Assembly (NCBI RefSeq): GCF_024223415.1 | Contig: NZ_CP100500.1 | DNA from: Escherichia coli | GTDB taxonomy: Bacteria > Pseudomonadota > Gammaproteobacteria > Enterobacterales > Enterobacteriaceae | Direction: 5' to 3' (one strand) | Length of the DNA: 64,000 nt | In this document: piece after piece, positions 9,171 to 60,807 of the stretch | How positions within the stretch are numbered: position 1 is the first letter of the stretch | How the letters are laid out: every line of letters starts with the position of its first letter | Notes under the pieces: generated by a model | What the model saw: only the letters and a program-made list of their open reading frames with translations | Told to the model about the DNA's origin: nothing | Databases searched by the model: none | Position numbers and translations under genes: made by a program

Positions 9171-10358
9171 ATGAACTTATCCCTACGACGCTCTACCAGC
9201 GCCCTTCTTGCCTCGTCGTTGTTATTAACCATCGGACGCGGCGCTACGCTGCCATTTATGACCATTTACTTAAGTCGTCAGTACAGCCTGAGTGTCGATC
9301 TCATTGGTTATGCGATGACAATTGCGCTCACTATTGGCGTCGTTTTTAGCCTCGGTTTTGGTATCCTGGCGGATAAGTTCGACAAGAAACGCTATATGTT
9401 ACTGGCAATTACGGCCTTCGCCAGCGGTTTTATTGCTATTCCCCTGGTTGACAGCGTCACGCTGGTGGTACTTTTTTTCGCACTCATCAACTGCGCCTAT
9501 TCCGTTTTTGCCACAGTGTTGAAAGCCTGGTTTGCCGACAATCTTTCATCCACCAGCAAAACGAAGATCTTCTCGATCAACTACACCATGCTCAATATTG
9601 GCTGGACCGTCGGCCCGCCACTCGGCACGCTGTTGGTCATGCAGAGCATCAATCTGCCCTTTTGGCTGGCCGCTATCTGCTCTGCGTTTCCCATGTTTTT
9701 CATTCAAATTTGGGTAAAGCGCAGCGAGAAAATCATCGCCACGGAAACAGGCAGTGTCTGGTCGCCGAAAGTTTTATTACAAGATAAGGCACTGTTGTGG
9801 TTTACCTGCTCTGGCTTTCTGGCTTCTTTTGTTAGTGGCGCATTTGCTTCATGCATTTCACAATATGTGATGGTGATTGCTGATGGTGATTTTGCCGAAA
9901 AGGTGGTCGCGGTTGTTCTTCCGGTGAATGCCGCCATGGTAGTTACGTTGCAATATTCCGTGGGCCGCCGACTTAACCCGGCTAACATCCGCGCGCTGAT
10001 GACAGCAGGCACCCTCTGTTTCGTCATCGGTCTGGTCGGTTTTATTTTTTCCGGAAACAGCCTGCTATTGTGGGGTATGTCAGCTGCGGTATTTACTGTC
10101 GGTGAAATAATTTATGCGCCGGGCGAGTATATGTTGATTGACCATATTGCGCCGCCAGGAATGAAAGCCAGCTATTTTTCCGCCCAGTCTTTAGGCTGGC
10201 TTGGTGCCGCAATTAACCCATTAGTGAGTGGCCTAGTGCTAACCAACCTGCCGCCTTCCTCGCTGTTTATCATCTTAGCGTTGGTGATCATTGCTGCGTG
10301 GGTGCTGATGTTAAAAGGGATTCGTGCAAAACCGTGGGGGCAGCCCGCGCTTTGTTGA
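9171..10358 (+). CDS. ydeE: MFS transporter YdeE (dipeptide exporter), 395 aa
   Basis: 12-TM MFS profile; recognised sequence. Confidence 0.85.
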   Translation: MNLSLRRSTSALLASSLLLTIGRGATLPFMTIYLSRQYSLSVDLIGYAMTIALTIGVVFSLGFGILADKFDKKRYMLLAITAFASGFIAIPLVDSVTLVVLFFALINCAYSVFATVLKAWFADNLSSTSKTKIFSINYTMLNIGWTVGPPLGTLLVMQSINLPFWLAAICSAFPMFFIQIWVKRSEKIIATETGSVWSPKVLLQDKALLWFTCSGFLASFVSGAFASCISQYVMVIADGDFAEKVVAVVLPVNAAMVVTLQYSVGRRLNPANIRALMTAGTLCFVIGLVGFIFSGNSLLLWGMSAAVFTVGEIIYAPGEYMLIDHIAPPGMKASYFSAQSLGWLGAAINPLVSGLVLTNLPPSSLFIILALVIIAAWVLMLKGIRAKPWGQPALC

Positions 10359-10484
10359 TTTAAGTCGAACACAATAAAAATTTAATTCAGCCTTCGTTTA
10401 GGTTACCTCTGCTAATATCTTTCTCATTGAGATGAAAATTAAGGTAAGCGAGGAAACACACCACACCATAAACGGAGGCAAATA

Positions 10485-10580
10485 ATGCTGGGTAATATGA
10501 ATGTTTTTATGGCCGTACTGGGAATAATTTTATTTTCTGGTTTTCTGGCCGCGTATTTCAGCCACAAATGGGATGACTAA
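10485..10580 (+). CDS. mgtS: Small membrane protein MgtS (YneM), 31 aa
   Basis: ATG preceded by GGAGG SD; translation MLGNMNVFMAVLGIILFSGFLAAYFSHKWDD; below the 60-aa track cutoff. Confidence 0.8.
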   Translation: MLGNMNVFMAVLGIILFSGFLAAYFSHKWDD

Positions 10581-10605
10581 TGAACGGAGATAATCCCTCA
10601 CCTAA

Positions 10606-10647
10606 CCGGCCCCTTGTTACAGTTGTGTACAAGGGGCCTGATTTTTA
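10606..10647 (+). terminator. Rho-independent terminator of mgtS
   Basis: GGCCCCTTGT...ACAAGGGGCC stem followed by TGATTTTTA. Confidence 0.5.
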
Positions 10648-10656
10648 TGACGGCGA

Positions 10657-10756
10657 AAAAAAACCGCCAGTAAACCGGCGGTGAATGCTTGCATGGATAG
10701 ATTTGTGTTTTGCTTTTACGCTAACAGGCATTTTCCTGCACTGATAACGGATCGTT
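10657..10756 (-). ncRNA. mgrR: PhoP-dependent Hfq-binding sRNA MgrR (approximate ends)
   Basis: Bounded by a minus-strand terminator (ACCGCC-loop-GGCGGT plus 8 T at about 10656-10682) and a PhoP box at 10788-10804; known genomic context between mgtS and dgcZ. Confidence 0.55.
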
Positions 10757-10787
10757 GACACAGTAGCATCAGTTTTCTCAATGAATG

Positions 10788-10804
10788 TTAAACGGAGCTT
10801 AAAC
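10788..10804 (-). promoter_or_regulatory. PhoP box (direct repeat GTTTAA-N5-GTTTAA) of the mgrR promoter
   Basis: Minus strand reads GTTTAAgctccGTTTAA, matching the PhoP consensus (T/G)GTTTA-N5-(T/G)GTTTA; lies just 3' of the dgcZ stop. Confidence 0.6.
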
Positions 10805-10812
10805 TCGGTTAA

Positions 10813-11715
10813 TCACATTTTGTTCGTCAATAAACATGCAGCGATTTCTTCCGGTTTGCTTACCCTCATACATTGCCCGGTTTGCTTACCCTCATACATT
10901 GCCCGGTCTGCTCTTCCAATGACCACATCCAGAGGCTCTTCAGGAAATGCGCGACTGACACCTGCTGTCACGGTAATGTTGATATGCCCTTCAGAATGTG
11001 TGATGGCATGGTTATCGACTAACTGGCAAATTCTGACACCTGCACGACATGCTTCTTCATCATTAGCCGCTTTGACAATAATGATAAATTCTTCGCCCCC
11101 GTAGCGATAAACCGTTTCGTAATCACGCGTCCAACTGGCTAAGTAAGTTGCCAGGGTGCGTAATACTACATCGCCGATTAAATGCCCGTAGGTATCATTA
11201 ACCAATTTAAATCGGTCAATATCCAACAACATTAAATAAAGATTCAGAGGCTCAGCGTTGCGTAACTGATGATCAAAGGATTCATCAAGAACCCGACGCC
11301 CCGGCAATCCCGTCAAAACATCCATATTGCTACGGATCGTCAGTAAATAAATTTTGTAATCGGTTAATGCCGCAGTAAAAGAAAGTAACCCTTCCTGAAA
11401 GGCGTCGAAATGCGCGCCCTGCCAGTGATTTTCAACAATAGCCAGCATTAATTCCCGACCACAGTTATGCATATGTTGATGGGCAGAATCCATTAGCCGA
11501 ACGTAAGGTAATTCATCGTTATCGAGTGGCCCCAGATGATCAATCCACCGACCAAACTGGCACAGTCCATAAGAATGGTTATCCGTTATTTCTGGCTTAC
11601 TGGCATCTCTCGCGACCACGCTGTGAAACATACTCACCAGCCACTGGTAGTGGGCATCGATAGCCTTATTGAGATTTAACAAGATGGCATCAATTTCCGT
11701 TGTCTTCTTGATCAT
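10813..11715 (-). CDS. dgcZ: Diguanylate cyclase DgcZ (YdeH; CZB zinc-sensor plus GGDEF), with frameshifted C-terminus
   Basis: Recognised CZB and GGDEF sequence; start taken at MIKKTTEIDAI; last 20 residues (QCMRVSKPEEIAACLLTNKM) replace the expected GRNRCMFIDEQNVINRV because of a 26-bp tandem duplication. Confidence 0.85.
   Translation of the reverse strand: MIKKTTEIDAILLNLNKAIDAHYQWLVSMFHSVVARDASKPEITDNHSYGLCQFGRWIDHLGPLDNDELPYVRLMDSAHQHMHNCGRELMLAIVENHWQGAHFDAFQEGLLSFTAALTDYKIYLLTIRSNMDVLTGLPGRRVLDESFDHQLRNAEPLNLYLMLLDIDRFKLVNDTYGHLIGDVVLRTLATYLASWTRDYETVYRYGGEEFIIIVKAANDEEACRAGVRICQLVDNHAITHSEGHINITVTAGVSRAFPEEPLDVVIGRADRAMYEGKQTGQCMRVSKPEEIAACLLTNKM
10855..10906. repeat. Perfect 26-bp tandem duplication (2 copies of tttgcttaccctcatacattgcccgg) inside the 3' end of dgcZ
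   Basis: Read directly; unit length not divisible by 3; removing one copy restores the GGDEF C-terminal GRNR motif. Confidence 0.85.
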
Positions 11716-11969
11716 TGCCACTCCTTTTTCACAGTTCCTTGTGCGCGCTATTCTAACGAGAGAAAAGCAAAATTACGTCAATATTTTCATAGAAATCCGA
11801 AGTTATGATTCATCTCTGAGATAACATTGTGATTTAAAACAAAATCAGCGGATAAAAAAGTGTTTAATTCTGTAAATTACCTCTGCATTATCGTAAATAA
11901 AAGGATGACAAAAAGCATAACCCAATACCCTAATGGCCCAGTAGTTCAGGCCATCGGGCTAATTTATTT

Positions 11970-13156: not shown

Positions 13157-13200
13157 CCAGGCTGTCCTGGCGATATCTCCAGGACAGCCATTGGTGGTGT

Positions 13201-22173: not shown

Positions 22174-22749
22174 CTACGGCAGTGCTGGCCATTCAATATC
22201 CTGTGCAGTTGACGTATCAACACGGTTCAGCAACACCCGATACTTTTTCCAGGCTTCCAGCAATGAGGTTTCTTCCTCCGTTGCGATTTCCAGATCTACA
22301 GCATCCTGAAGTGGCGCAATATGCTCACTGGCTACCTGCATCAGGCTGTTTTTTGTTTCTTCCGCCTCCCGGATCCGGAACAGTTTTTCTGCTTCTGCAT
22401 CTTTCACCCAGGCTGTGCCGTTCCACTTCTGAAACTCCCCTTCCGGCGATAACCAGGTAACATTTTCCGGTAACGGACCGAGTTCAGAAATAAATAACGC
22501 GTCCCCTGACGCTACGTCATAAACCGTTTTACCCCGATGGTCTTCATCGAGATGCCACGATGCCTTATCACTGTTGAAAACAGCCACAAAGCCAGCAGGA
22601 ATATCTGGTGGTGCAATATCGGTACTGTTTGCTGGCAGACCTGTATGAGGCGGAATATATGCGTCACCTTCACCAATAAATTCATTAGTTCCGGCCAGCA
22701 GATTATAAATTTTTATGGTCCGTGGTTGTTCACTCATTCTGAATGCCAT
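22174..22749 (-). CDS. tfaQ: Tail fibre assembly protein (TfaQ/TfaR-like), 191 aa
   Basis: Recognised Tfa sequence; start overlaps the stop of the upstream fibre gene. Confidence 0.9.
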
Positions 22750-60749: not shown

Positions 60750-60807
60750 TTTCTGGTGACGTTTGGCGGTATCAGTTTTACTCCGTGACTGCTCTGCCGC
60801 CCTTTTT
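60750..60807 (+). ncRNA. dicF: DicF small RNA (ftsZ translation inhibitor), with intrinsic terminator
   Basis: TTTCTGGTGACGTTTGGCGGTATCAGTTTTACTCCGTGACTGCTCTGCCGCCCTTTTT read directly; recognised DicF sequence. Confidence 0.7.

What the first reader, a model, noticed from the sequence alone, without database searches (positions are those of the whole stretch)
10485..10813. Convergent PhoP-regulated pair mgtS and mgrR, with the mgrR PhoP box adjacent to the dgcZ stop
The 31-codon mgtS gene and a minus-strand sRNA unit are each bounded by their own intrinsic terminators. The mgrR promoter carries a textbook GTTTAA-N5-GTTTAA PhoP box at 10788-10804, only 9 bp from the dgcZ stop, so dgcZ transcription ends by running into an active promoter. 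I did not find a comparably clean PhoP box upstream of mgtS (only a single GTTTAG half-site near 10395).
Basis: partly seen in the sequence, partly recalled or inferred. Interest (0 to 1): 0.3.

Follow-up and report, generated by a model that had tools for sequence, protein, structure and literature searches.

The report
Known E. coli mgtS–mgtT/mgrR magnesium locus
This is the well-studied E. coli low-magnesium locus (small protein genes mgtS and mgtT facing the small RNA gene mgrR, both switched on by the regulator PhoP), so it is ordinary; the one unusual thing is a private 26-base duplication that frameshifts the end of the neighbouring dgcZ gene and moves its stop codon out of the PhoP binding site.

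Summary
They include mgtS (10485-10580, +), mgrR (10753..10656, -; Rfam RF01407, 281.9 bits), both terminators, and an exact GTTTAA-N5-GTTTAA repeat at 10804..10788 that shuffled sequence never produced. The locus is the published PhoP-activated convergent mgtS/mgrR pair of E. coli, and K-12 Term-seq 3' ends fall on both terminators.

Three corrections apply.
1. It overlaps the mgtS stop, runs through the mgtS terminator and overlaps the mgrR 3' end.
2. "9 bp from the dgcZ stop" holds only for this sequence. A 26-bp tandem duplication (10851-10902) frameshifts dgcZ. It was found in none of 5,426 complete E. coli genomes and in no JGI metagenome contig. In K-12 and the near-identical NCTC9112 the stop codon lies inside the distal PhoP half-site (GTT TAA).
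3. mgtS does have a PhoP box (AATTCA-GCCTT-CGTTTA, 10384-10400). It sits 12 nt upstream of an extended -10 element and is conserved across Escherichia, Citrobacter and Salmonella.

dgcZ and mgrR run in the same direction with no terminator between them. dgcZ transcripts therefore most likely read through to the mgrR terminator rather than "end at a promoter".

Verdict: already known, low interest.

The parts
10384..10400 (+). mgtS PhoP box: AATTCA-GCCTT-CGTTTA. The proximal half-site is strong and the distal one is degenerate.
   Evidence: Read from the sequence. TTCA and G(T/C)TTA are conserved with 11-bp register in 18 aligned Escherichia/Citrobacter/Salmonella loci, where Citrobacter has GTTCAG-N5-GTTTAA. 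The box lies 12 nt upstream of the -10 element, which is architecture I of Zwir 2012 (PMC3335776). PhoP binding was not tested here.
10410..10418 (+). mgtS extended -10 element, TGcTAATAT. The predicted transcription start is about 10425-10426, giving a 5' UTR of about 60 nt.
   Evidence: Sequence and conservation. The start site is inferred, not mapped here. The published yneM-lacZ fusion is described only as running 'up to nt +91' (PMC3536696).
10485..10580 (+). mgtS coding sequence, 31 aa: MLGNMNVFMAVLGIILFSGFLAAYFSHKWDD.
   Evidence: ORF list. Identical to K-12 b4599. Pfam PF22865 at 88.2 bits and NCBIfam NF033842 equivalog at 80.6 bits.
10580..10684 (+). mgtT coding sequence, 34 aa. Its ATG overlaps the mgtS stop (TAATG). 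It runs through the mgtS terminator and overlaps the last 29 nt of mgrR on the opposite strand.
   Evidence: ORF list. Annotated as b4775 in K-12 and in NCTC9112. Pfam PF23498 at 96.3 bits. Detected by ribosome profiling and immunoblot (bioRxiv 10.1101/511675). Described as a PhoQP-dependent mgtS-mgtT operon (PMC11429745). Outside Escherichia only the N-terminus is conserved.
10608..10646 (+). mgtS intrinsic terminator: hairpin 10608-10638 and T-tract 10642-10646.
   Evidence: Fold of -23 kcal/mol, z = -3.45. A 10-bp perfect inverted repeat. The K-12 Term-seq 3' end at 1622804(+) corresponds to window 10643.
10656..10753 (-). mgrR sRNA, 98 nt. It has a 5' stem-loop, an A-rich Hfq/seed region, and a terminator (stem 10682..10663) followed by U8.
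   Evidence: Rfam RF01407 at 281.9 bits. K-12 annotation b4698 transferred, with a single nucleotide difference from K-12 at +4. Fold z = -2.89. The terminator stem keeps its pairing through C-G/U-G and G-U/G-C/A-U changes in 20 sequences. Term-seq 3' end at 1622824(-) with 2.4 million reads.
10760..10768 (-). mgrR extended -10 element, TGcTACTGT. The transcription start is G at 10753.
   Evidence: Sequence. TGnTAnnnT is conserved in all 21 aligned loci. The start is taken from the 5' end annotated in K-12.
10788..10805 (-). mgrR PhoP box: AGTTTA-AGCTC-CGTTTA(A), which is GTTTAA-N5-GTTTAA. It spans -52 to -35 relative to the transcription start and lies 23 nt upstream of the -10 element.
   Evidence: Exact match with 0 expected in shuffles. 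The proximal half-site is invariant and the distal one variable across genera. The 23-nt spacing is architecture III of Zwir 2012, defined as 21-23 nt. PhoP dependence of mgrR comes from the literature.
10799..10801 (-). Ancestral dgcZ stop codon (TAA of GTT TAA), inside the distal PhoP half-site. It is out of frame in this window.
   Evidence: K-12 dgcZ ends at L001 4961, which is window 10799. NCTC9112 is the same. The stop is at -48 in K-12 and E. whittamii.
10813..11715 (-). dgcZ, frameshifted allele of 300 aa. It diverges from wild type at residue 281 (GRNRCMFIDEQNVINRV becomes GQCMRVSKPEEIAACLLTNKM), with a new stop at 10815..10813.
   Evidence: NCBIfam NF007380 at 490.9 bits, aligned to positions 1-289 of 296. 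Pfam GGDEF covers 130-281, against 130-283 in wild type. This exact protein is absent from about 15 billion sequences.
10851..10902 (.). 26-bp tandem duplication (CCGGTTTGCTTACCCTCATACATTGC, two copies) bounded by the 5-bp microhomology CCGGT.
   Evidence: TRF: period 26, 2.4 copies. BLAST against K-12 shows a 26-bp offset. Removing one copy leaves a single mismatch in 10 kb against NCTC9112. The junction was found in 0 of 5,426 E. coli genomes and 0 JGI metagenome contigs.

Best explanation
This is the E. coli Mg2+-starvation module mgtS-mgtT / mgrR, flanked by ydeE and dgcZ.

**Activation.** Under low Mg2+, phosphorylated PhoP activates two converging promoters.
- On the + strand, a box at 10384-10400 lies 12 nt upstream of an extended -10 element, so it overlaps the -35 position. 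It drives mgtS-mgtT.
- On the - strand, a box at 10805..10789 lies 23 nt upstream of an extended -10 element, one helical turn further out. It drives the 98-nt Hfq-dependent sRNA MgrR.

**Termination.**
- Most mgtS transcripts stop at the hairpin and T-tract at 10608-10646.
- A fraction reads through. This fraction encodes full-length MgtT and runs antisense across mgrR into dgcZ, where a Rho-dependent region is reported.
- MgrR stops at its own terminator (10682..10656).
- The terminated 3' ends face each other 13-20 bp apart and do not overlap.

**dgcZ.** It lies upstream of mgrR on the same strand and has no terminator of its own. Its transcripts most likely cross the mgrR promoter and finish at the mgrR terminator. 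In wild-type E. coli the dgcZ stop codon is part of the distal PhoP half-site. In this window a private 26-bp microhomology-flanked tandem duplication frameshifts dgcZ after residue 280 and moves the stop 14 bp upstream. The mgrR promoter itself is untouched.

**Basis.**
- Shown here: the sequence anatomy, the family memberships, the conservation and the uniqueness of the duplication.
- Taken from the literature: PhoP dependence and the K-12 3' ends.
- Inferred: the mgtS transcription start, the promoter classes, dgcZ read-through and the effect of the frameshift.
For: - Gene identities.
- PhoP boxes and their spacing. Promoter classes from PMC3335776.
- Conservation of both boxes, both extended -10 elements and MgrR in 18-21 loci from Escherichia, Citrobacter and Salmonella.
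- Terminators. K-12 Term-seq 3' ends at 1622804(+) and 1622824(-), and a Rho region at 1623270(+) antisense to dgcZ (PMC7815308 supp. 1 and 2).
- PhoQ/PhoP dependence and convergent arrangement.
- mgtT.
- No terminator between dgcZ and mgrR.
- Duplication.
- Position of the dgcZ stop across species.
Against: - No experiment was done on this strain.
- The primary papers that mapped the mgrR and yneM/mgtS start sites and PhoP boxes (Moon & Gottesman 2009; Wang et al. 2017) were not available. The mgtS start is therefore predicted, and the mgrR start rests on the RefSeq annotation.
- The generic sigma-70 scan found no promoter in 10300-10900. This is expected for activator-dependent promoters that lack a -35 element, but it gives no positive support.
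- The distal mgtS half-site matches the consensus poorly in E. coli.
- A dgcZ-mgrR co-transcript has not been demonstrated.
- The duplication could be a sequencing or assembly error.
Confidence: 0.93

Rival explanations
1. One reading: dgcZ transcription is ended at the mgrR promoter. PhoP~P or RNA polymerase bound at the box blocks elongating polymerase, so low Mg2+ truncates dgcZ mRNA at or before its stop codon.
For: The box abuts the dgcZ stop here, or contains it in wild type. No dedicated dgcZ terminator exists.
Against: - No evidence for a roadblock was found. The curated Term-seq passages retrieved for this region list a minus-strand 3' end only at the mgrR terminator.
- The position of the stop relative to the box varies freely among relatives: -27, -48, -59, -69 to -81 and -295. 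This argues against a selected coupling.
- Response regulators bound at a promoter are not generally strong roadblocks (background knowledge).
- No paper in the library links dgcZ/ydeH to PhoP.
Confidence: 0.07
2. The 26-bp duplication is a sequencing, assembly or editing artefact. The real genome would then carry wild-type dgcZ with its stop inside the PhoP box.
For: The junction is absent from 5,426 complete genomes and from JGI metagenomes. The resulting protein is absent from about 15 billion sequences. The surrounding 10 kb is otherwise identical to NCTC9112 apart from one SNP.
Against: The duplication is bounded by a 5-bp microhomology (CCGGT), which is typical of replication-slippage duplications (background knowledge). 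The neighbouring roughly 11 kb shows no other indels, so the assembly is not generally prone to indels. A unique private mutation is entirely plausible.
Confidence: 0.3
3. The convergent layout is itself regulatory. Read-through mgtS-mgtT transcripts are antisense to MgrR and its promoter, and they modulate MgrR through transcriptional interference or RNA duplex formation, or the reverse.
For: mgtT extends 29 nt into mgrR. MgtT protein is detected, so some read-through of the terminator must occur. A Rho-dependent region on the + strand antisense to dgcZ implies that + strand transcription passes mgrR. The convergent arrangement is conserved.
Against: - At the mgrR terminator the Term-seq signal is about 1000-fold higher than at the mgtS terminator (2.4 million against 2.6 thousand). 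Antisense transcripts are therefore a tiny fraction of MgrR.
- The mgtT ORF is poorly conserved outside Escherichia.
- Deleting or overexpressing mgtT gave no phenotype.
Confidence: 0.1
4. The GTTTAA-N5-GTTTAA repeat is a chance match or simply the end of the dgcZ coding sequence, not a functional PhoP site.
For: In E. coli half of it is dgcZ coding sequence (GTT TAA). Relaxed PhoP-consensus matches occur in the window at the chance rate, 17 found against 16.4 expected.
Against: The exact repeat is never seen in shuffles. It sits in direct orientation 23 nt from a conserved extended -10 element of an sRNA shown to be PhoP-dependent. The proximal half-site is invariant across three genera, including species where dgcZ is absent upstream.
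Confidence: 0.01

Closest known systems
E. coli K-12 mgtS(yneM)-mgtT / mgrR locus (b4599, b4775, b4698; NC_000913.3 1622646-1622914)
   Same: Gene order and strands are the same. MgtS and MgtT are identical and MgrR differs by 1 nt. The PhoP boxes, the -10 elements and both terminators are identical.
   Different: A 26-bp duplication in the adjacent dgcZ moves its stop from inside the PhoP box (10799-10801) to 10813-10815. Flanking DNA is about 95-99% identical, so this is a different strain background, closest to NCTC9112.
Rfam RF01407 (STnc560 / MgrR)
   Same: Full-length match at 281.9 bits.
   Different: The Rfam model is 214 nt and covers 34 nt of promoter and the antisense of the mgtS terminator and stop. 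Its boundaries (10787..10574) are therefore not the ends of the 98-nt RNA (10753..10656).
PhoP-activated promoter architectures I and III (Zwir et al. 2012, Salmonella; PMC3335776)
   Same: mgtS has a single direct-orientation box 12 nt upstream of the -10 element, like mgtA and phoP (architecture I). mgrR has a single direct box 23 nt upstream, like rstA and ompX (architecture III).
   Different: The assignment is made here from sequence and an annotated or predicted start site. It is not based on footprinting or in vitro transcription, and neither promoter was among the 23 studied in that paper.
sRNA genes with their own promoter inside or at the end of an upstream same-strand gene (for example MicL or DapZ-type 3'-end sRNAs; from background knowledge)
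   Same: The mgrR promoter overlaps the last codons of dgcZ in wild-type E. coli. dgcZ has no terminator of its own, so it probably shares the mgrR terminator.
   Different: The MgrR body lies entirely downstream of the dgcZ ORF. MgrR also occurs without dgcZ upstream in S. enterica arizonae, C. braakii and C. amalonaticus, so it is an independent gene rather than a derivative of the dgcZ 3' UTR.

Membership tests
MgrR sRNA (Rfam RF01407) | Covariance-model score above the gathering threshold | tested here: met
   281.9 bits against 55, E = 1.8e-64.
MgrR sRNA (Rfam RF01407) | Rho-independent terminator with a long U-tract, and a conserved A-rich/seed region | tested here: met
   8-bp GC-rich stem plus U8. 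The region AAAGCAAAACACAAAUCUAUCCAUGCAAGCAUU is invariant in 20 sequences, and terminator pairing is kept through substitutions.
MgrR sRNA (Rfam RF01407) | PhoQ/PhoP-dependent transcription and Hfq dependence | not testable with these tools
   Literature for K-12 and Salmonella only. The promoter sequence here is identical to K-12.
MgtS small protein (Pfam PF22865; NCBIfam NF033842) | Profile match above the curated cut-off, with 31 aa and a single hydrophobic segment | tested here: met
   88.2 bits against 27 and 80.6 bits against 35. 100% identical to K-12 MgtS.
MgtT small protein (Pfam PF23498) | Profile match, and an ORF overlapping the mgtS stop out of frame | tested here: met
   96.3 bits against 27. 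ATG at 10580 within TAATG. Annotated in K-12 and NCTC9112.
PhoP-activated promoter | Direct repeat (T/G)GTTTA-N5-(T/G)GTTTA in direct orientation at an integral number of helical turns (12 or 21-23 nt) upstream of the -10 element | tested here: met
   mgrR: both GTTTA cores perfect, 23 nt upstream. mgtS: proximal CGTTTA and distal AATTCA, 12 nt upstream. Both are conserved.
PhoP-activated promoter | PhoP~P binding and PhoP-dependent initiation at the mapped start site | not testable with these tools
   Only literature statements that mgrR and yneM are directly PhoP-activated. The primary mapping papers were not available.
DgcZ (YdeH) diguanylate cyclase (NCBIfam NF007380) | Full-length equivalog match, comprising a CZB domain plus a complete GGDEF domain through the C-terminal GRN motif | tested here: inconclusive
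   490.9 bits against 256, but the alignment stops at model position 289 of 296. The GGDEF match loses its last two profile positions, and R281/N282 and the 14 residues after them are replaced by frameshifted sequence. GRNRCMF is invariant in all orthologues seen. Enzyme activity was not tested.

The most novel reading that the evidence does not exclude
In wild-type E. coli the distal PhoP half-site of mgrR is literally the last sense codon and stop codon of dgcZ (GTT TAA). The stop position drifts across, into and beyond the box among close relatives. PhoP~P occupancy under low Mg2+ could therefore interfere physically with the completion of dgcZ transcription, or dgcZ transcription could occlude the mgrR promoter. 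Either effect would couple Mg2+ sensing to c-di-GMP synthesis. The private duplication in this strain, which probably cripples DgcZ and separates the stop from the box, would then be a natural perturbation of that coupling.
Probability: 0.07. Interest if true: 0.4.

Novelty: already known. Interest (0 to 1): 0.1.

Why it matters
The locus itself adds nothing new, because mgtS, mgtT, mgrR and their PhoP control are textbook E. coli biology. The check is useful in four ways.
- It corrects an annotation-level error: the missing mgtT.
- It locates the degenerate but conserved mgtS PhoP box.
- It flags a probably defective dgcZ allele. That allele could affect zinc- and CsrA-controlled c-di-GMP signalling and poly-GlcNAc biofilm formation in this strain if the duplication is real.

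Tried and rejected
- **Primary papers not held.** Moon & Gottesman 2009 (PMID 19889087 / PMC2841474), Wang 2017 (PMC5465934), Yin 2019 (PMC6351178) and Thomason 2015 (PMC4288677) were all unavailable. I could not compare with their mapped start sites or drawn PhoP boxes.
- **Published start-site tables.** The Cappable-seq and SMRT-Cappable-seq supplements contained none of the expected coordinates or gene names.
- **Generic sigma-70 scan.** It found nothing in 10300-10900. This is uninformative for activator-dependent promoters.
- **Relaxed PhoP-consensus search.** Allowing up to 2 mismatches gives chance-level counts window-wide (17 against 16.4). Only the exact repeat together with its position and conservation carries weight. 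One of these hits is the mgrR terminator itself (GGTTTACTGGCGGTTTT, 1 mismatch), which I treat as coincidence.
- **Short repeats within the locus.** TCATTGAGA occurs as an inverted pair, and TAAACGGAG and ATGAATGTT as direct pairs. I considered them as shared operators and set them aside. They sit at non-equivalent positions relative to the two start sites, and about 0.4 such 9-mer pairs are expected by chance in 471 bp (my estimate for equal base frequencies).
- **MgrR as a dgcZ 3'-UTR-derived sRNA.** Rejected, because mgrR keeps its promoter and sequence in species where dgcZ is not upstream.
- **Literature link between dgcZ/ydeH and PhoP.** None was found.
Full report
**1. What is in the sequence**

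Window 9171-11721 carries, in order:
- ydeE (+)
- a 31-codon ORF at 10485-10580 (+)
- a 34-codon ORF at 10580-10684 (+)
- a minus-strand non-coding unit
- a GGDEF-domain gene on the minus strand ending at 10813

The whole window is E. coli chromosome. The 581-bp core matches 5,416 of 5,426 complete E. coli genomes at 95-100% identity. RefSeq annotates the underlying features as mgtS, mgtT and dgcZ. In K-12 MG1655 the equivalent features are mgtS b4599, mgtT b4775, mgrR b4698 (98 nt, minus strand) and dgcZ b1535. Window coordinate equals K-12 locus L001 coordinate plus 5838 up to 10881.

The family checks agree:
- The 31-aa protein is identical to K-12 MgtS and passes the Pfam MgtS-like and NCBIfam small_MgtS models.
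- The 34-aa protein passes Pfam MgtT.
- Rfam RF01407 (STnc560, the Salmonella name for MgrR) matches 10787..10574 (-) at 281.9 bits against a threshold of 55.

The Rfam model is longer than the RNA. Transferring the K-12 annotation gives MgrR at 10753..10656, and the window differs from K-12 MgrR at one base, +4.

**2.

All the stated items are present at the stated places.
- The repeat GTTTAAGCTCCGTTTAA lies at 10804..10788 on the minus strand. It is the only exact match in the 64 kb, and none of 100 shuffles gave a match.
- The mgrR terminator is an 8-bp GC-rich stem (10682..10663) followed by eight T.
- The mgtS terminator is a hairpin at 10608-10638, including a 10-bp perfect inverted repeat, followed by TGATTTTTAT.
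- The dgcZ ORF of this window stops at 10815..10813, 8 nt from the repeat.
- The GTTTAG half-site is at 10396-10401.

One qualification concerns "textbook". In the (T/G)GTTTA-N5-(T/G)GTTTA register the box reads AGTTTA-AGCTC-CGTTTA. The two GTTTA cores are perfect, but both first positions depart from the consensus.

**3. Published evidence on function**

- mgrR and yneM (= mgtS) are listed among genes directly activated by PhoP, and promoter-lacZ fusions of both fall when PhoP synthesis is repressed (PMC3536696).
- K-12 Term-seq gives a 3' end at 1622804 (+), which is window 10643 in the T-tract after the mgtS hairpin. It gives another at 1622824 (-), which is window 10663 at the start of the mgrR U-tract, with about 2.4 million reads (PMC7815308 supp. 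1).

Neither is met.

**4.

The ATG of mgtT overlaps the mgtS stop (TAATG at 10578-10582). The ORF then runs through the mgtS terminator and ends at 10684, 29 nt inside the 3' end of mgrR on the opposite strand. MgtT was found by ribosome profiling and confirmed by immunoblot (bioRxiv 10.1101/511675). It is described as part of a PhoQP-dependent mgtS-mgtT operon, with no phenotype on deletion or overexpression (PMC11429745).

The main mgtS 3' end therefore lies inside an annotated ORF, and only read-through transcripts can encode full-length MgtT. Read-through is plausible for two reasons:
- The + strand has no T-tract after the mgrR hairpin.
- A Rho-dependent termination region is reported at K-12 1623270 (+), antisense to dgcZ, about window 11135 (PMC7815308 supp. 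2).

Outside Escherichia only the first dozen or so codons of mgtT are conserved, and many Citrobacter loci have no comparable ORF.

**5.

- Tandem Repeats Finder reports a 26-bp unit (CCGGTTTGCTTACCCTCATACATTGC) in 2.4 copies at 10851-10912.
- BLAST against K-12 shows the same 26-bp offset.
- A 36-nt query across the copy junction matches none of 5,426 complete E. coli genomes.
- A 29-nt junction pattern matches no JGI metagenome contig.
- The resulting 300-aa protein is not among about 15 billion catalogued proteins.
- The closest genome, NCTC9112, is identical over 10 kb after one copy is removed, apart from a single SNP at window 13165. No other indel occurs in the first 11 kb.
- The unit is bounded by the 5-bp microhomology CCGGT, the usual signature of slippage duplications (my reading of the sequence, with background knowledge).

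The duplication shifts the dgcZ frame after residue 280. The invariant GRNRCMF...V tail is replaced by QCMRVSKPEEIAACLLTNKM, and the GGDEF profile match loses its last two positions. Whether the enzyme still works was not tested.

For the finding itself, the consequence is this. In K-12, NCTC9112 and E. whittamii the dgcZ stop codon is at window 10799-10801, so the distal half-site GTTTAA is the codon pair GTT TAA. The "9 bp" gap is specific to this allele.

**6. The mgtS PhoP box**

Twenty loci retrieved with a 20-nt MgrR core pattern were aligned. They comprise Escherichia, Citrobacter, one S. enterica arizonae, a Raoultella-labelled MAG and a contaminated "Caldithrix" MAG.

Upstream of mgtS there is a conserved block, (A/G)TTCA-N6-G(T/C)TTA, followed 12 nt later by TGCTA(A/C)TAT. 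In the window this is AATTCA-GCCTT-CGTTTA at 10384-10400, with the extended -10 element TGcTAATAT at 10410-10418. Citrobacter has the clearer GTTCAG-N5-GTTTAA.

A 12-nt distance from the -10 element is architecture I of Zwir et al. (single direct box overlapping the -35 position, as in mgtA and phoP; PMC3335776). The transcription start, about 10425-10426, is my prediction.

**7. The mgrR promoter**

All 21 sequences conserve the proximal half-site (C/T)GTTTA and an extended -10 element TGnTAnnnT (window TGcTACTGT, 10768..10760). The annotated 5' end, G10753, lies 7 nt downstream of it. The distal half-site is variable: AGTTTA in E. coli, and TAGTTA, TAGTTT or TGGTTG elsewhere.

The box ends 23 nt upstream of the -10 element. 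That corresponds to architecture III (21-23 nt; rstA and ompX, alpha-CTD-dependent). The two converging promoters therefore appear to use different PhoP geometries. This is an inference from sequence.

**8. dgcZ and mgrR**

Both are on the minus strand. The interval from the dgcZ stop to the mgrR start has no terminator-like element and no structure beyond chance (z = -0.55). The simplest reading is that dgcZ transcripts pass the mgrR promoter and end at the mgrR terminator. This is inferred, not shown.

Across relatives the first base of the dgcZ stop codon lies at the following positions relative to the mgrR start:

| Locus | Stop position |
|---|---|
| E. coli K-12, E. whittamii | -48 |
| Divergent Escherichia L009 (TAA changed to TTA; ORF continues 7 codons through the whole box) | -27 |
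| E. albertii (11 extra bp between the GTT TAA and the box) | -59 |
| Most Citrobacter | -69 to -81 |
| Two Citrobacter | -295 |
| This window | -62 |

dgcZ is not upstream at all in S. enterica arizonae, C. braakii and C. amalonaticus. This drift argues that the overlap of stop codon and box in E. coli is incidental rather than a selected coupling.

**9. Comparison with what is known, and verdict**

The locus is a member of every family considered: MgrR, MgtS, MgtT and PhoP-activated promoters. DgcZ also matches, with a damaged C-terminus. Nothing about the mgtS/mgrR pair departs from the published K-12 description.

The only new observations are strain- or lineage-level details:
- the private duplication
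- the assignment of the two promoters to different PhoP architectures
- the drift of the dgcZ stop

Novelty: already known. Interest: low, 0.1.

The most novel reading not excluded is a physical interplay between PhoP occupancy at the box and completion of dgcZ transcription. I put it at about 7% probability.

Noticed in passing
window 10851-10902 (dgcZ 3' end): A 26-bp tandem duplication bounded by CCGGT microhomology frameshifts dgcZ after residue 280. It is absent from 5,426 complete E. coli genomes, from JGI metagenomes and from a 15-billion-protein catalogue. The rest of the 10-kb neighbourhood is identical to strain NCTC9112 apart from one SNP at 13165.
   Followed up: yes
window 10580-10684 (+): The annotated small-protein gene mgtT overlaps the mgtS stop, spans the mgtS terminator (the Term-seq 3' end at 10643 falls inside it) and overlaps the last 29 nt of mgrR in antisense. 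It is poorly conserved outside Escherichia.
   Followed up: yes
L009 (a sequence labelled E. coli SCPM-O-B-8794, about 90% identical), mgrR promoter: The dgcZ stop TAA inside the PhoP box is mutated to TTA, so the distal half-site reads GTTTTA. dgcZ therefore reads 7 more codons through the whole box, to a TGA at -27.
   Followed up: partly
L003 (E. albertii), mgrR promoter: Compared with E. coli, 11 extra bp separate the dgcZ GTT TAA from the PhoP box. This suggests that a one-helical-turn deletion in the E. coli/E. whittamii lineage moved the dgcZ terminal GTTTAA into the distal half-site position.
   Followed up: partly
L004 (SMXE01000224.1, 'MAG: Caldithrix sp.') 1-396: The start of this MAG contig is 99.5% identical to the E. 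coli mgrR-mgtS region. This is probably contamination or a chimeric contig.
   Followed up: partly
window 10676..10660 (-): The mgrR terminator GGTTTACTGGCGGTTTT matches the PhoP consensus with one mismatch. It is probably coincidence, because relaxed matches occur at the chance rate.
   Followed up: partly
window 10785..10779 (-), at -32 to -26 of mgrR: A block T(T/C)(C/T)ATTG between the PhoP box and the -10 element is conserved in all 21 loci. Its role is unknown. It is too close to the -10 element to be a standard -35 hexamer.
   Followed up: no
window 10424-10432 / 10776-10784; 10469-10477 / 10789-10797; 10497-10505 / 10781-10789: Three exact 9-mer repeats link the mgtS promoter and leader to the mgrR promoter region: TCATTGAGA (inverted), TAAACGGAG and ATGAATGTT (direct). 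They sit at non-equivalent positions relative to the start sites and are probably chance.
   Followed up: partly
window about 11135 (+), equivalent to K-12 1623270: Published data report a Rho-dependent termination region on the strand antisense to dgcZ. This implies that + strand transcription from the mgtS side runs across mgrR and its promoter.
   Followed up: partly
window 10333-10349 (+): A terminator-like hairpin followed by CTTTGTTGAT lies at the 3' end of ydeE, just before its stop codon. It probably insulates the mgtS promoter from ydeE transcription.
   Followed up: no
window 22208-22406, 46822-47207, 49718-50110, 60751-60802: Rfam hits to IS009, two cspA-type thermoregulators and DicF. 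In the near-identical strain NCTC9112, lambdoid prophage genes fill the equivalent region from about window 20.7 kb. The window diverges from NCTC9112 beyond about 24.5 kb.
   Followed up: no
window 10787..10574 (-): The Rfam RF01407 model boundaries include 34 nt of promoter and the antisense of the mgtS terminator and stop. Rfam coordinates therefore overstate the sRNA (98 nt, 10753..10656).
   Followed up: yes
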